Source: Mobula birostris
Taxonomy: Eukaryota
Length of the DNA stretch: 64,000 nucleotides
Assembly (NCBI RefSeq): GCF_030028105.1
Contig: NC_092384.1
Coordinates: 17,677,629 to 17,741,628, forward strand
Direction: 5' to 3'
Numbering within the stretch: position 1 is the stretch's first letter; the number at the start of each line of letters is the position of its first letter. A program made the position numbers. Below, in pieces: positions 39,001-42,000 of the stretch.

Positions 39001-42000
39001 AAAAAAAAGGTGTAAAGCGAATTAGTGACACAAATTTTCAAACAGCAATACCATTTCAAAACATTTCCGCAATCTTGGGTTTTCCTAAAATGCAAAAAGA
39101 TGAAAATGTTCCACTTACTTAGCACAATAAGCTGAGATCCACTTCCATTTCCAAATATTTGTTGTTGACTTTTCACTTGACAGTAATACACGCCGACGTC
39201 TGAGTAGCTCACATTCAGGAGAGTAAATGTGCCCCTGCCTTTCTTTACTTTGAACTTATTTCTGCTGTTTGGTTCTATAAATGCCTTCTGATCCTCCTTC
39301 CACCACGAAACTTCAGCAGTATCTTGTAATATTGGAAATTTGCAGAACATGGAATCAGTTTCACCGATTGGGACTCTTAAGATTGGAGGGAATTGTTCTA
39401 CATTGGTCGAAGTTGCTTTTGCGGCTGACAAAGCATAAGTGAGAATGATGAAAAGAGTTTTATTCATTGGACGAAGAATCAACTGACAAAATAGGCAGAA
39501 CAATGGTATGCGAATTGAATATTTACTATGACTAAAATTGCTGGGGGTAATTAATGTATAATATTATAAAATATCTACTTCGTAGATTGGGAACAAATAT
39601 TTAAGCGTACCTGGCCAAAACGCGGCGAGAAGCGCCAAGCACAAAACGTCTGCATCCACCGACATTGCAAATGAGAGTGGTCCACCTGAAAGATAGAAAT
39701 TCATCGGATGTAATAATCAAGTGCTCGTAATATATGAAGTCATGTGGTCAAGGTTCCATGTTGCCTTGGGTAGAAGAAATGCTGCAGATACAGGAAATCG
39801 CGAGGAATACACACAACGCGCGAGCGGAGCTCAGCATTAATGATGAAAGAGAAATAGTCGATGTTTCGGGGTAAGGTCCTTCTTCAGTACTGGAAAGGAC
39901 GGGAGAAGAAGCCACAATAAGGAGATAGGGGAGGGAAAGGCGTATAAGCTGGCAGGTGATAAGTGGAGGGAGGGGAAGTAAAGAGATGGAACTTGATAGG
40001 TGGATTTATATTCCGTCTCGGTAGCCTCCAATCTGCTGATATGAACATTGGTTTCTCTAACGTTCAGTAATTTCTCCCGTACACATTTCACCGTTTTCCA
40101 TTTTCCATTCTGCGTTCTTTTTCCTCCTCACCCCGCTTTTCTGCTGCTCCTCCATTACTTTCGCCAATAGCCCAATGACCTCTCCTATCAGATTCTTTCT
40201 CATTCAGCTCTTTCCTACTTCCACATATAGCCTTCGGGGCATTCCGAATTCACACAAGGCGTTTCCTATGTTCTAGTCCTTCCCGGTTCACTGCGTCTAA
40301 ATGATATAAGCTGCAGCCCGTTATTGATTCTTATCGTTAAGTAATTCTAGCACAGCACAGGAAAATGTCTTTCGACCAATGATGCCTGTATCGGTCAAAA
40401 TGCAAATTGAATTCTATCTGCTCGCTCTTTTTTTGCATGTTCATGGGCATGTTTAAATGTCTTTTAACTGTTGTGATAATATCAGCACTCCCCTAGGCAC
40501 TGTCAAGTCGCCTAACACTCTTTGCGTAACATACCTGCTTCACAAACCTCACTTATTTTTTTCTCTCTTACTTCAAGGCGATGCCCTCTATTAACTGCCG
40601 CGAATGTTCATGAGTGATACTAGTGAAGAGAGTGGCTCGGCCAACAGGATTATAGAATCCCGGTTCTCGACGATATTTAGACACTGTTTCGGAGAAAGGC
40701 GACCTGCATCATCCATAGGAAACGAGTTCAAGCAATTCACAACCGAAATTTAAGCTATATTGTAGTACACCTGAGGGAAGTCATGAGAGCACAAATGTAG
40801 CATGATACAAACTTCAGTATAAATTGAGACCGAGAAATCGTGATGACTGAGCTGTAAATTATTATTTCCCATCACTGTGGCGAAAATCAGGGAAGCCAAG
40901 GGATTAAGGGGAATTAACATTATTTTTTAAAAGATTCACGGGAGAAAAATAGAGGCGTCGGGGGAACGGGGTGCTCACGGTTTAATTAACGCAATCCGTT
41001 TGATGAACATACAGCACCTGATCAAATGTATCTTTTGATATTTTGAGAAGCTGCAGGAGAAATTGTCAGGCCTATTGAAATGATATCAGCATCGTTTCTA
41101 ACAAGGATTAGTGTTACCGCAGCATTGGAGAGTGACAAATGTGCATTTATTTAAGAAGATCTGCAAGGACAAGCGGAGATTTGAAGGTGGCGAGACGAAC
41201 ATCGGTGCGTAGAAAGTGTATCGGAGGGAGAGAATCTATCACAATTTGGAAAGGCAAAAGTTGAAATAGTGACCGTAGTATGGATTTGTCATTTGGAATC
41301 TCATCTCACAAATTTGATTGAGTTGTTTTGAAGAGGTGAAGAAAATTGTTGAGGGCAGTAATTGGACTATACCTTCAAAGACATTTGCAAGGTCCTCTAT
41401 GGCAAGCTTGCATGGAAAGCCAGGTGACATGGGAGCCAGGGTGAGCAAGCCACCTGAGCACAGCAACACAAGATTGGTTTAGGAGAGGGACTCAGAAGGT
41501 GACAGTGGAAATTTGATATCAAGAATAACCGCCTGCAACTAGTCGTGTACTAAACTGGTAGGTTCCAGTTCTAGTATTGTTCATCATCTCCGAAATATTT
41601 AGATGAAAATATCTTAACTTAGTTGATATCTTTCGGGATGCAACGACATTGGTGGTGACAGTGAAAGATAACTACGACGATAAACTGCGAAAGCAGGCCA
41701 AGCAAGTGCAGATAGAATATAACTCGGACATTTGCACAAATTGTATTTTGGTCAATTAAACTAGGGCCGGTATTGCACAGTAGATTGTCCAGGGCGTTGA
41801 AGTAAAACAACGTGACTGAGGGGTAGACGTAGACTGATCATTGAAGCTGACAAAAAAGATGGATAGACTGGTGAGGAAGGTAATTGACACATTTATTCAA
41901 CAGTTGTCGCAATGAGTACAGCACCTGGGCCGTAATATTCAACAGTACAAGTCGTTGCTGAAGCATAATAAGAGTATTCTGTGCATTTCAGATCATCCGG

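What the first reader, a model, noticed from the sequence alone, without database searches (positions are those of the whole stretch)
39119..39424. Unusually compact V domain carrying a germline J motif
Seen: the canonical cysteines are only 54 residues apart (MFC...YYC), and the segment between the C-strand Trp and the D/E strands is short. The loop after YYC is short (QVKSQQQIF) and ends in GNGSGSQLIV, matching G-x-G-[ST]-x-L-x-V. Established: conventional V domains usually have about 65-75 residues between the cysteines; shark VNAR is shortened through loss of the C'/C'' region. Inference: a CDR2-less V domain that arose independently of, or shares history with, VNAR-like domains.
Basis: partly seen in the sequence, partly recalled or inferred. 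Interest (0 to 1): 0.65.

Follow-up and report, generated by a model that had tools for sequence, protein, structure and literature searches.

The report
Compact VJ-like domain of ray receptor
This is the outer immunoglobulin domain of a manta ray cell-surface receptor that probably sends inhibitory signals; its short, antibody-like shape is shared by a whole gene family found in sharks, rays and chimaeras.

Summary
Window 39424-39119 (minus strand) is one phase-1/phase-1 exon. It encodes a 101-residue Ig domain with cysteines 54 apart and a G-S-G-S-Q-L-I-V end.

It is exon 2 of an intact 7-exon gene of Mobula birostris (not human): split leader, VJ-like domain, one C1-set domain, TM, and a tail with two ITIM-type motifs.

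A confident AlphaFold2 model (pLDDT 92) shows strands A/A'-B-C-D-E-F-G with a bulged G strand, no C'' and only a one-residue C' bridge. Pfam scores it best as I-set; V-set matches only the F-G end.

The compactness is not peculiar to this gene. In 85 relatives from about 20 cartilaginous-fish species the spacing is 54-60, and 79 of 85 keep the J-like motif. The C-to-D segment is conserved, not hypervariable.

VNARs are among the nearest structures and sequences. So are CD79b, TCR V-alpha, V-lambda and NCAM/Robo I-set domains, at similar scores, so no specific VNAR kinship is shown.

Best reading: a non-rearranging, SIRP-like inhibitory receptor of a cartilaginous-fish multigene family. I found no description of the family in the paper library searched. 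Moderate interest.

The parts
39611..39665 (-). Leader exon (likely true start ATG at 39665): MSVDADVLCLALLAAFWP plus one base. A 186-bp leader intron follows ('split leader').
   Evidence: donor G|gtacgc. The homologous start MSLDAN... in paralogue P0004.
39119..39424 (-). The finding: a single VJ-like exon, 306 nt, phase 1/1. It encodes a compact Ig domain (Cys27-Cys81 of the 101-aa translation; Trp40; N92-G-S-G-S-Q-L-I-V100).
   Evidence: 100% identical to residues 79-180 of the annotated Mobula birostris protein P0002.
35728..36024 (-). C1-set Ig domain exon (TPPTPLKII...VYTCLVSHETL...SYIIEQ), 297 nt, phase 1/1.
   Evidence: Pfam C1-set E 1.4e-8, 35.4 bits against a 21 cut-off. Boundaries.
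32193..32300 (-). Stalk and transmembrane exon (DLDNINKPLILGGALSGLAIVVLIIILIRIGVKAKRG); no charged residue within the hydrophobic run.
31373..31416 (-). Cytoplasmic exon 1 (IQRTSEEASPCGEP).
30740..30850 (-). Cytoplasmic exon 2, with the ITIM-type motif LAYATL and the motif VVYAK(T).
29867..29953 (-). Cytoplasmic exon 3, with the ITIM-type motif LTYAAL and the stop codon.

Best explanation
The exon encodes the membrane-distal domain of a non-rearranging, type I transmembrane Ig-superfamily receptor of the giant manta ray. The protein is built as split leader, compact VJ-like domain, one C1-set domain, TM helix, and a tail with two ITIM-type tyrosine motifs.

The domain has the I-set/VNAR-type topology: split A/A' strand, no C'', a vestigial C', and a direct C-to-D linker. 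It keeps an antigen-receptor-type G strand with a G-x-G bulge.

The gene belongs to a multigene family present in chimaeras, sharks, skates and rays. Members come with long ITIM-bearing tails or with short tails.

Inferred mechanism: the distal domain binds a ligand through its BC and FG loops and neighbouring faces, which are the variable parts. Ligand engagement leads to tyrosine phosphorylation of LAYATL and LTYAAL and recruitment of SH2-domain phosphatases, which damps activation of the cell, as with SIRP-alpha and other ITIM receptors.

Shown here: exon structure, domain types, fold model, family range, motif conservation. Inferred: ligand binding, signalling, cell type.
For: - Exon map with AG/GT at all 7 coding exons, summing to 1008 nt.
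- 100% match of the exon to an annotated M. birostris protein.
- Pfam: I-set/Ig/V-set for the exon and C1-set for the next exon.
- Over the 87 rows of A2, Pfam finds V-set in 86, Ig_3 in 86, I-set in 83 and C1-set in 76.
- AlphaFold2 model: pLDDT 92.2, pTM 0.84, strands A, A', B, C, D, E, F and a split G. A 59-spacing relative gives the same picture (pLDDT 85.3).
- Family range: 59 of 66 hits of the family profile are family members. 57 of them carry a cartilaginous-fish name and 2 show no organism. All 20 hits of the V-only profile are family members: 19 carry a cartilaginous-fish name and one (P0134) shows no organism.
- Cys spacing is 54-60 in 85 of 87 rows. The J-like motif is present in 79 of 85 and an NG[ST] sequon in 71 of 85.
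- Tails: of the 86 database relatives in A2, 60 have a detectable TM. Of those, 36 carry at least one [SILV]xYxx[ILV] motif, 12 have tails under 40 aa, and 12 have long tails without the motif.
- The PDB profile search with V+C1 gives collinear matches to Ig chains, UrIg2 (124 bits) and SIRP-alpha/gamma (109/94 bits).
- The short-tailed paralogue P0004 differs from the window's domain at 17 of 101 residues (83% identity). By my reading, none of the differences lies in the BC or FG loop, as is usual for paired receptors.
Against: - No expression, ligand or signalling data exist for this gene.
- ITIM-type motifs are short and could occur without function. Only 36 of the 60 relatives with a TM carry one by my regex.
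- The short-tailed paralogues mostly lack the basic TM residue expected of classical activating partners, so the 'paired receptor' picture is incomplete.
- 25 of the 86 relatives showed no TM by my crude hydropathy scan. Many may be partial gene models.
- The annotated NCBI model adds two 5' exons that I think are repeat-derived. If they are real, the N-terminus differs from my reading.
- The Pfam scores of I-set (33.2) and V-set (29.7) for the exon are close, so the class label rests mainly on the model's strands.
Confidence: 0.75

Rival explanations
1. It is a relative or living remnant of the lineage that gave rise to VNAR, the single-domain variable region of shark IgNAR. The short C-D region would then be shared by descent.
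For: - Foldseek lists 5 VNAR chains among the 50 rows shown (2coq at rank 3, TMq 0.73).
- The V-only family profile matches 9 chains named or described as VNAR or antigen receptor end to end (4hgk_C at 51.1 bits, the other eight at 38.5-42.8). These are the best single-domain full-length matches.
- The first Atlas look-alike of a chimaera homologue's V part is a 107-aa 'putative Antigen receptor (Fragment)' cluster, score 0.95 (a lead only).
- Both domains occur in cartilaginous fishes and both lack C''. Passages of PMC8470474 say that VNAR and I-set topologies match.
Against: - Scores are not distinctive. TCR V-alpha (39.5 bits), CD79b (38.3) and single Robo or contactin I-set domains (52-59 bits) are in the same range.
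- By TM-score, V-lambda (0.79-0.81), TCR V-alpha (0.75-0.79) and CD79b (0.76) are as close as or closer than the VNARs (0.72-0.76).
- Identity to the VNARs is 18-24%.
- The gene is germline-joined, with no RSS heptamer in 38901-39700. It is followed by one C1 domain, TM and ITIM-type motifs, not IgNAR constant domains.
- The family is present in Callorhinchus, which by my recall has no IgNAR.
- No tree was made.
Confidence: 0.08
2. It is the cartilaginous-fish orthologue of SIRP-alpha (PTPNS1), as several automatic names say, and binds a CD47-like ligand.
For: - Many relatives are auto-named 'tyrosine-protein phosphatase non-receptor type substrate 1-like' or 'SIRP beta-1-like'.
- The architecture is VJ-type domain, C1 and ITIM-type motifs.
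- The PDB profile matches to SIRP-alpha 2wng_A (109 bits) and SIRP-gamma 4i2x_E (94 bits) are collinear.
Against: - There is one C1 domain, not two.
- The distal domain lacks the C'/C'' region that, by my recall, SIRP V domains have.
- The same relatives are just as often auto-named tapasin-related, Ig lambda-like, NCR3LG1-like, CD276 or MHC class II, so the names carry little weight.
- SIRP ranks below IgA1 heavy chain and UrIg2.
- SIRP is absent from the 60 rows shown for the exon alone, from the 60 shown for the V-only profile, and from the 50 Foldseek rows.
Confidence: 0.08
3. It belongs with the non-rearranging 'antigen-receptor remnants' (UrIg/UrIg2 of elasmobranchs, PRARP of birds and other vertebrates), that is, a relic of the pre-RAG receptor gene.
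For: - A single VJ exon with a split leader and a short 186-bp leader intron, followed by a C1 domain. PMC12227049 section 7 stresses these features for UrIg2.
- UrIg2 (9dmx_A) is the second-best PDB match of the family profile, at 124 bits.
Against: - According to that section, UrIg2 has a typical V domain and 9-11 C domains, and UrIg is conserved in its number of C domains. This gene has one C1 and a compact domain.
- The 124 bits for UrIg2 are spread over 3 stretches of a protein with three C1 domains, so they are not specific.
- PRARP could not be compared: the paper is not held and no PRARP sequence reached me.
Confidence: 0.07
4. It is a CD79-like (Ig-alpha/Ig-beta) signalling chain of the B-cell receptor.
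For: - CD79 chains are among the closest folds. 3kg5_A (human Ig-beta, TMq 0.76) and 7xq8_B are named as such. 7wso_C at rank 1 is a B-cell-receptor entry by my recall.
- phmmer of the exon finds CD79a 9e6g_C at E 0.0024.
- The V-only profile scores CD79b at 38.3 bits.
Against: - The gene has a C1 domain and ITIM-type motifs instead of a single Ig domain and an ITAM.
- It is one of many paralogues per genome.
Confidence: 0.02

Closest known systems
SIRP family (SIRP-alpha/beta/gamma)
   Same: Non-rearranging distal domain with a J-type G strand, followed by C1-set domain(s), TM, an ITIM tail in the inhibitory form and short-tailed paralogues. The family profile matches the SIRP-alpha and SIRP-gamma structures collinearly.
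   Different: One C1 domain instead of two. The distal domain is of I-set/VNAR type without C'/C''. Asn replaces Phe/Trp before G-x-G. There is no evidence of orthology or of CD47 binding. Most short-tailed members lack a basic TM residue.
VNAR (variable domain of shark IgNAR)
   Same: Compact Ig domain lacking C''/CDR2, with a split A/A' strand and a J-type end. Found in cartilaginous fishes. Among the best fold and profile matches.
   Different: Germline-joined and not rearranging. By my recall, even shorter than VNAR. The C-D segment is conserved rather than hypervariable. Attached to one C1 domain, TM and ITIM-type motifs. No extra loop cysteines in this gene.
UrIg / UrIg2 (non-rearranging elasmobranch antigen-receptor-like genes; PMC12227049)
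   Same: Single VJ exon, split leader, C1-type constant domain next, elasmobranch genomes. UrIg2 9dmx_A scores 124 bits with the family profile.
   Different: By that paper, UrIg2 has a typical V domain and 9-11 C domains and is a disulfide-linked dimer. Here there is one C1, a compact domain and an ITIM-type tail, in many paralogues.
I-set domains of adhesion and muscle proteins (titin, NCAM, Robo, contactin)
   Same: Best Pfam model for the exon; Cys spacing; split A/A' strand; missing C''. These are the top sequence matches in the PDB.
   Different: In the alignments printed for titin, CEA and Robo1, the match stops at about residue 83-88 of the query and does not reach the G-x-G-[ST]-x-L-x-V strand. 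By recall, those proteins have no C1 domain next. They are not ITIM receptors.
CD79b (Ig-beta)
   Same: Small Ig domain with a J-like G strand; close fold match (3kg5_A TMq 0.76).
   Different: CD79b is a single-Ig ITAM chain encoded by a single-copy gene (recall). Here there is C1 plus ITIM-type motifs, in a multigene family.

Membership tests
V-set (antigen-receptor-type V domain) | Conserved Cys (B strand), Trp (C strand) and Cys (F strand, in D-x-G-x-Y-x-C) | tested here: met
   C27, W40 and D75-V-G-V-Y-Y-C81. These columns are invariant or nearly so in A2.
V-set (antigen-receptor-type V domain) | C' and C'' strands with a CDR2 loop between C and D | tested here: not met
   The model has 12 residues between C (36-42) and D (55-60), with one bridge residue. 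Relative P0064 has none. The Pfam V-set model aligns only residues 54-101.
V-set (antigen-receptor-type V domain) | J motif [FW]-G-x-G-T-x-[LV]-x-V with a G-strand bulge | tested here: inconclusive
   G93-S-G-S-Q-L-I-V100 fits, and the model splits G into 88-92 and 96-100. The position before G-x-G is Asn (73 of 87 rows), not Phe/Trp.
I-set | Pfam I-set above the gathering score; split A/A'; very short C'; direct C'-D linker; no C'' | tested here: met
   I-set scores 33.2 bits against a 23.7 cut-off and is the best model for the exon. Strands A 9-11 and A' 14-17, and a single bridge at residue 48. The topology definition is taken from passages of PMC8470474.
VNAR / IgNAR | V assembled by RAG-mediated rearrangement (RSS-flanked V, D and J segments) | tested here: not met
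   V and J parts lie in one open exon that ends in a splice donor. No CACAGTG or CACTGTG occurs in 38901-39700.
VNAR / IgNAR | V followed by IgNAR constant domains (several C1 domains; secreted or TM heavy chain) | tested here: not met
   One C1 exon, then TM and a tail with ITIM-type motifs. The IgNAR domain number is recalled.
VNAR / IgNAR | Loss of C''/CDR2 | tested here: met
   VNAR chains are among the closest folds.
SIRP | V domain followed by two C1-set domains | tested here: not met
   Only one intact C1 exon lies between the V-like exon and the TM exon. Among the relatives' sequences I read, only P0078 has V-C1-C1; P0156 has V-C1 twice.
SIRP | ITIMs in the tail of the inhibitory member | tested here: met
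   LAYATL and LTYAAL. Function was not tested.
SIRP | Orthology (synteny, tree) and CD47 binding | not testable with these tools
   No eukaryotic genome context beyond the window is available. No binding assay is possible.
UrIg / UrIg2 | Typical VJ exon with split leader, followed by several C1-type domains | tested here: not met
   The split leader and single VJ exon are present. There is only one C1, and the distal domain is not a typical V. The definition is from PMC12227049 section 7.
PRARP | Sequence kinship with chicken PRARP genes; MHC linkage | not testable with these tools
   The paper is not held. No PRARP sequence was obtained. Only mentions in PMC10751288 and PMC11599192 were seen.
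CD79a/b | Single Ig domain, TM, ITAM in the tail | tested here: not met
   A C1 domain is present and the tail has ITIM-type motifs, not an ITAM.

The most novel reading that the evidence does not exclude
This cartilaginous-fish family could be the surviving non-rearranging cell-surface relative of the domain that was recruited as VNAR (and NAR-TcR V): a germline VJ-C1 receptor whose distal domain already had the I-set-like, CDR2-less form before RAG-mediated rearrangement was imposed on a paralogue. It would give the long-discussed 'VNAR came from a cell-surface receptor' idea a concrete candidate gene family. It would also add a third non-rearranging VJ-C1 lineage beside UrIg and UrIg2.
Probability: 0.08. 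Interest if true: 0.85.

Novelty: new variant of a known kind. Interest (0 to 1): 0.45.

Why it matters
Non-rearranging genes with a joined VJ exon next to a C1 domain are the raw material in current models of how antibodies and T-cell receptors arose (UrIg/UrIg2, PMC12227049).

This gene is part of a large family confined, as far as these searches reach, to chimaeras, sharks and rays. The family combines an antigen-receptor-type G strand and C1 domain with an I-set/VNAR-type compact distal domain and inhibitory tail motifs.

Automatic annotation gives its members at least seven unrelated names (SIRP-alpha-like, SIRP-beta-like, tapasin-related, Ig-lambda-like, NCR3LG1-like, CD276, MHC class II). 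The family is therefore easily overlooked or mis-counted in comparative immunology.

If characterised, it would tell how the oldest jawed vertebrates regulate leukocytes through paired Ig receptors. It could also serve as an outgroup, or a candidate relative, in trees of VNAR and other V domains.

If it is simply a lineage-specific SIRP-like expansion, it is a useful annotation correction and little more.

Tried and rejected
- First translations used the plus strand and a wrong frame and gave stops. The coordinates were corrected.
- Complex prediction with two copies of the V-like exon returned 'no answer' (score 0.00; my alignment was not used). It says nothing for or against dimerisation, and I make no dimer claim.
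The organisms of many unnamed hits therefore stayed unknown unless a later search named them.
- The ESM Atlas does not hold the window's sequence. A chimaera homologue's V part gave only V-set-type look-alike clusters, which are leads and not evidence.
- Nine answered literature searches (and the passages) found no description of this family. Fu et al. 2019 (PRARP) and Flajnik et al. 2023 (UrIg) are not held. Subscription journals and all supplements were out of reach, so 'not in print' is not established.
- CD79 identity was considered because of the fold hits and rejected on architecture.
- A pseudogene or artefact reading was rejected: all seven exons are open with AG/GT sites, and the exon is 97% identical in M. 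hypostoma.
- No tree against VNAR, TCR, Ig, CD79 or SIRP was made. I had no stored sequences of those families and did not type any from memory.
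Full report
WHAT IS THERE

The finding's coordinates (39119-39424) are exactly one exon on the minus strand. It has the acceptor ...tttgtcag|CC and the donor ...CTAA|gtaagt, is 306 nt long, and is in phase 1 at both ends.

Read as window:39120-39422:-, it gives 101 residues, AKATSTNVEQ...GNGSGSQLIVL. The cysteines of MFC and YYC are 54 residues apart. Trp follows the first Cys by 13 residues, and the second Cys follows Trp by 41.

- The strand is minus.
- The part that fits a J segment is G93-S-G-S-Q-L-I-V100, preceded by Asn92 rather than Phe/Trp.

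A regex scan of all six frames found no second exon of this kind in the window. The window has one N run (64-214), which I left alone.

WHOSE GENE

The exon is 100% identical to part of an annotated 395-aa 'uncharacterized protein' of Mobula birostris, and 97% identical to one of M. hypostoma. The window is therefore manta ray, not human.

Mapping that protein on the window and reading the junctions gives seven coding exons on the minus strand, all with AG/GT sites and summing to 1008 nt:
- leader, 39665-39611 (MSVDADVLCLALLAAFWP)
- a 186-bp leader intron
- the VJ-like exon, 39424-39119
- a C1-set exon, 36024-35728 (Pfam C1-set E 1.4e-8)
- a stalk/TM exon, 32300-32193
- three tail exons, 31416-31373, 30850-30740 and 29953-29867

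The tail carries LAYATL and LTYAAL, which fit the ITIM consensus [SILV]xYxx[ILV].

The two further 5' exons of the NCBI model (44341-44255, 41454-41371) read like repeat-derived text. I think they are untranslated or spurious.

I searched exon by exon. The V-like exon was used for all database searches. The C1, TM and tail ORFs were only scanned against Pfam.

FOLD

AlphaFold2 was run on the exon with an 87-row family alignment. It gave mean pLDDT 92.2 and pTM 0.84. The strands are:
- A 9-11
- A' 14-17
- B 23-28
- C 36-42
- D 55-60
- E 63-68
- F 77-85
- G in two parts, 88-92 and 96-100, around the G-S-G bulge

Between C and D lie 12 residues with a single bridge residue (Phe48). There is no C'' strand and at most a vestige of C'.

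A relative with the commoner spacing of 59 (P0064) also shows no strand between C (57-62) and D (77-83) (pLDDT 85.3).

According to passages of PMC8470474, a split A/A' strand, a 2-3-residue C' and a direct C'-D linker in place of CDR2/C'' define the I-set. The same passages say this topology is shared by VNAR.

Pfam agrees. For the exon the best model is I-set (33.2 bits against a 23.7 cut-off). V-set (29.7 bits) aligns only residues 54-101, the D-to-G part.

FAMILY

An exhaustive phmmer search with the exon found 416 proteins at E <= 0.001. The 150 listed were giant multi-Ig proteins matched by many stretches, plus roughly 45 single-stretch, full-domain hits at 35-53% identity. I fetched 41 of the latter.

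Profile searches gave names:
- 59 of the 66 hits of the family profile are family members.
- 57 of those carry the name of a cartilaginous fish and 2 show no organism.
- The other 7 hits (turtle x2, blenny, sole, thrips, crow, newt) are weak or partial.

All 20 hits of a V-only profile are family members: 19 carry a cartilaginous-fish name and one (P0134) shows no organism.

About 20 species appear across: Callorhinchus; Heptranchias, Heterodontus, Mustelus, two Scyliorhinus, Rhincodon, Stegostoma, Hemiscyllium, two Chiloscyllium, Pristiophorus; Amblyraja, Leucoraja, Pristis, Hemitrygon, Hypanus, two Mobula, Narcine. Several paralogues often sit on one chromosome-sized record.

The automatic names are inconsistent: SIRP-alpha-like, SIRP-beta-1-like, tapasin-related, Ig lambda-1-like, NCR3LG1-like, CD276, MHC class II.

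Alignment A2 holds the window exon plus 86 relatives. I left out:
- P0002, the spliced model of this gene
- P0059, a different two-V architecture
- P0097, a model with C1 before V
- P0184 and P0199, with partial or no V

On A2:
- Both cysteines align in 85 of 87 rows.
- Their spacing is 54 in 24 rows, 56 in 4, 57 in 1, 58 in 11, 59 in 44 and 60 in 1.
- A J-like motif (regex G.G[STC].[LVIP].[VIA]) follows the second Cys in 79 of 85 rows.
- N-G-[ST] occurs there in 71 of 85 rows.

The C-to-D segment (W-W-K-x-G-E-x-x-F-L-x-x-x-D-x-R-K-x-F) is among the best-conserved parts. The most variable positions lie at the N-terminus, in A', at the end of the BC loop, in D and in the FG loop.

Pfam over the 87 rows finds V-set in 86, Ig_3 in 86, I-set in 83 and C1-set in 76.

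Of the 86 relatives, my hydropathy scan finds a TM in 60:
- 36 of these have at least one ITIM-type motif in the tail.
- 12 have tails under 40 aa.
- 12 have long tails without the motif.
- 25 relatives show no TM, and for one the anchor regex failed.

COMPARISON WITH KNOWN DOMAINS

Foldseek against the PDB (50 rows shown; E 7e-9 to 5e-7; identities 16-26%):
- CD79 chains: 7wso_C at rank 1, TMq 0.70 (a B-cell-receptor entry by my recall); 3kg5_A human Ig-beta, 0.76; 7xq8_B, 0.74
- V-lambda: 0.76-0.81
- TCR V-alpha: 0.75-0.79
- five VNAR chains (2coq, 9up9, 5l8k_B, 5l8j_B, 8ht3): 0.72-0.76
- VpreB
- NCAM and titin I-set: 0.70-0.74

NKp30 and SIRP do not appear among the 50 rows.

phmmer of the exon against PDB sequences puts titin, CEACAM, Robo and NCAM first. 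CD79a follows at E 0.0024. No VNAR is in the 60 rows shown.

I built a V-only family profile (A3) from V-only or V-TM database entries, so that no sequence had to be cut. Its ranking is:
- First, multi-domain I-set proteins: titin 97.5 bits over 4 stretches; contactin-1 59.0; Robo 52.6-55.1; pIgR about 49-51.
- Then nine chains named or described as VNAR or 'antigen receptor', matched end to end: 4hgk_C at 51.1 bits, the other eight at 38.5-42.8.
- These are level with TCR V-alpha (39.5), CD79b (38.3) and CD276 (38.2).

The full V+C1 profile matches IgA1 heavy chain (134.7 bits), UrIg2 9dmx_A (124.4), SIRP-alpha 2wng_A (109.4), SIRP-gamma (93.9) and Ig light chains (about 92 bits in one collinear stretch).

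The picture is of a domain that is intermediate between I-set and V-set, sitting in an antigen-receptor/SIRP-type V-C1 arrangement. No single known family is clearly closest.

HOW IT PROBABLY WORKS

Shown: a type I membrane protein with a distal compact VJ-like domain, one C1 domain, a TM segment without charged residues, and a tail with two ITIM-type motifs.

Inferred: it is an inhibitory receptor. Ligand binding by the distal domain would lead to phosphorylation of the two tyrosines and recruitment of SH2-domain phosphatases, as established for SIRP-alpha and other ITIM receptors.

Paired-receptor hint: the M. birostris paralogue P0004 has a tail of about 8 residues. Its distal domain differs from this one at 17 of 101 positions (83% identity). 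By my reading, none of the differences lies in the BC or FG loop. That is the usual pattern of paired receptors that see the same ligand. However, P0004 has no basic TM residue for a DAP12-type adaptor.

Further inference: Asn92 with Gly93-Ser94 forms a glycosylation sequon that is kept in 71 of 85 rows. It lies at the place where antigen-receptor J segments have the Phe/Trp that packs at the V-V interface. If it is glycosylated, the domain would not pair like VH-VL and would act as a single domain. This is untested. The complex prediction gave no verdict and is not used either way.

LITERATURE

- PMC12227049 (abstract, sections 7 and 10, and term passages) describes UrIg2. It is a non-rearranging gene with a typical VJ exon, a split leader and 9-11 C domains, and is a paralogue of the MHC-linked UrIg. 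The paper does not mention SIRP, ITIM, PRARP or I-set.
- PMC10751288 (passages) and PMC11599192 (passages) list NKp30, PRARP, CD79, NITR, SIRP and CD8 as joined-VJ genes.
- PMC8455134 (passages) has nothing on this family.
- Searches found no paper describing a cartilaginous-fish VJ-C1-ITIM family.
- Fu et al. 2019 (PRARP) and Flajnik et al. 2023 (UrIg) are not held. Supplements are closed. The supplementary tables and figures of PMC12227049 could list related genes that I could not see.

VERDICT

But it classifies as I-set-like, the trait is family-wide, and kinship with VNAR is neither shown nor excluded.

The gene is an ordinary-looking member of an under-described multigene family of SIRP-like inhibitory receptors, confined as far as these searches reach to cartilaginous fishes. 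I rate it a new variant of a known kind, of moderate interest.

Noticed in passing
window 58214-58500 (-): A second family-type C1 exon (APPTPLEIVP...LLCKTTAFYPEKLEIVWQRNN...) broken by one frameshift before ...CLVSHVSLSVPASFSYIQEQ. tblastn gives 48-71% identity to the C1 domain of P0004. No matching V exon lies in the window; it may lie beyond 64000. Probably a pseudogene relic or an assembly indel.
   Followed up: partly
window 6041-6375 (-): A third family-type C1 exon (VPQTPLKII... TVTFYPNKSEIFWIQNNTEI... EGVYEASSTLE...) with several stops and frameshifts: a decayed relic. Together with the one above, it suggests tandem duplication with gene loss.
   Followed up: partly
window 36632-38020 (+), inside the V-C1 intron; also 13048-14642 (-), 14978-16348 (+), 18182-20036 (-), 55256-56521 (-): Long LINE-type ORFs. 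The first matches RVT_1 at E 1.6e-33; I did not run the others against Pfam. Their translations repeat the same reverse-transcriptase wording, and the ORF at 13548-14642 looks endonuclease-like by eye. Most of the window outside the gene is retroelement debris.
   Followed up: partly
window 44255-44341 and 41371-41454 (-); compare ORF 49167-49646 (+): The two 5' exons of the NCBI gene model read like repeat-derived text. Compare '...LGSLQPDGMNIDFSNF' in the ORF at 49.2-49.6 kb and in the N-terminus of the M. hypostoma model P0003. The likely true start is the ATG at 39665, as in paralogue P0004.
   Followed up: partly
relatives P0032, P0061, P0083, P0092 (TM segments): Four short-tailed family members have a TM segment ending in [IVM]-[DE]-H. 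An acidic residue there is unusual for a receptor chain, where a basic one is expected for DAP12/FcR-gamma pairing. This hints at a different partner.
   Followed up: no
relatives P0155, P0142, P0156, P0096, P0137, P0024 (end of the distal domain): A subset, including Callorhinchus and Heterodontus members, has a Cys immediately after the J-like motif (...L-T-V-C). This is a possible inter-chain disulfide. The manta gene has Leu there.
   Followed up: no
window 9114-11198 (+/-): The somewhat GC-richer stretch (0.47-0.49) carries long Pro/Ser/Arg-rich open frames with internal repeats (…SPRPRLRAPSPRPRL…). Its nature is unknown; it may be a repeat.
   Followed up: no
window 64-214: A run of 151 N (assembly gap or mask). 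It was left untouched.
   Followed up: no
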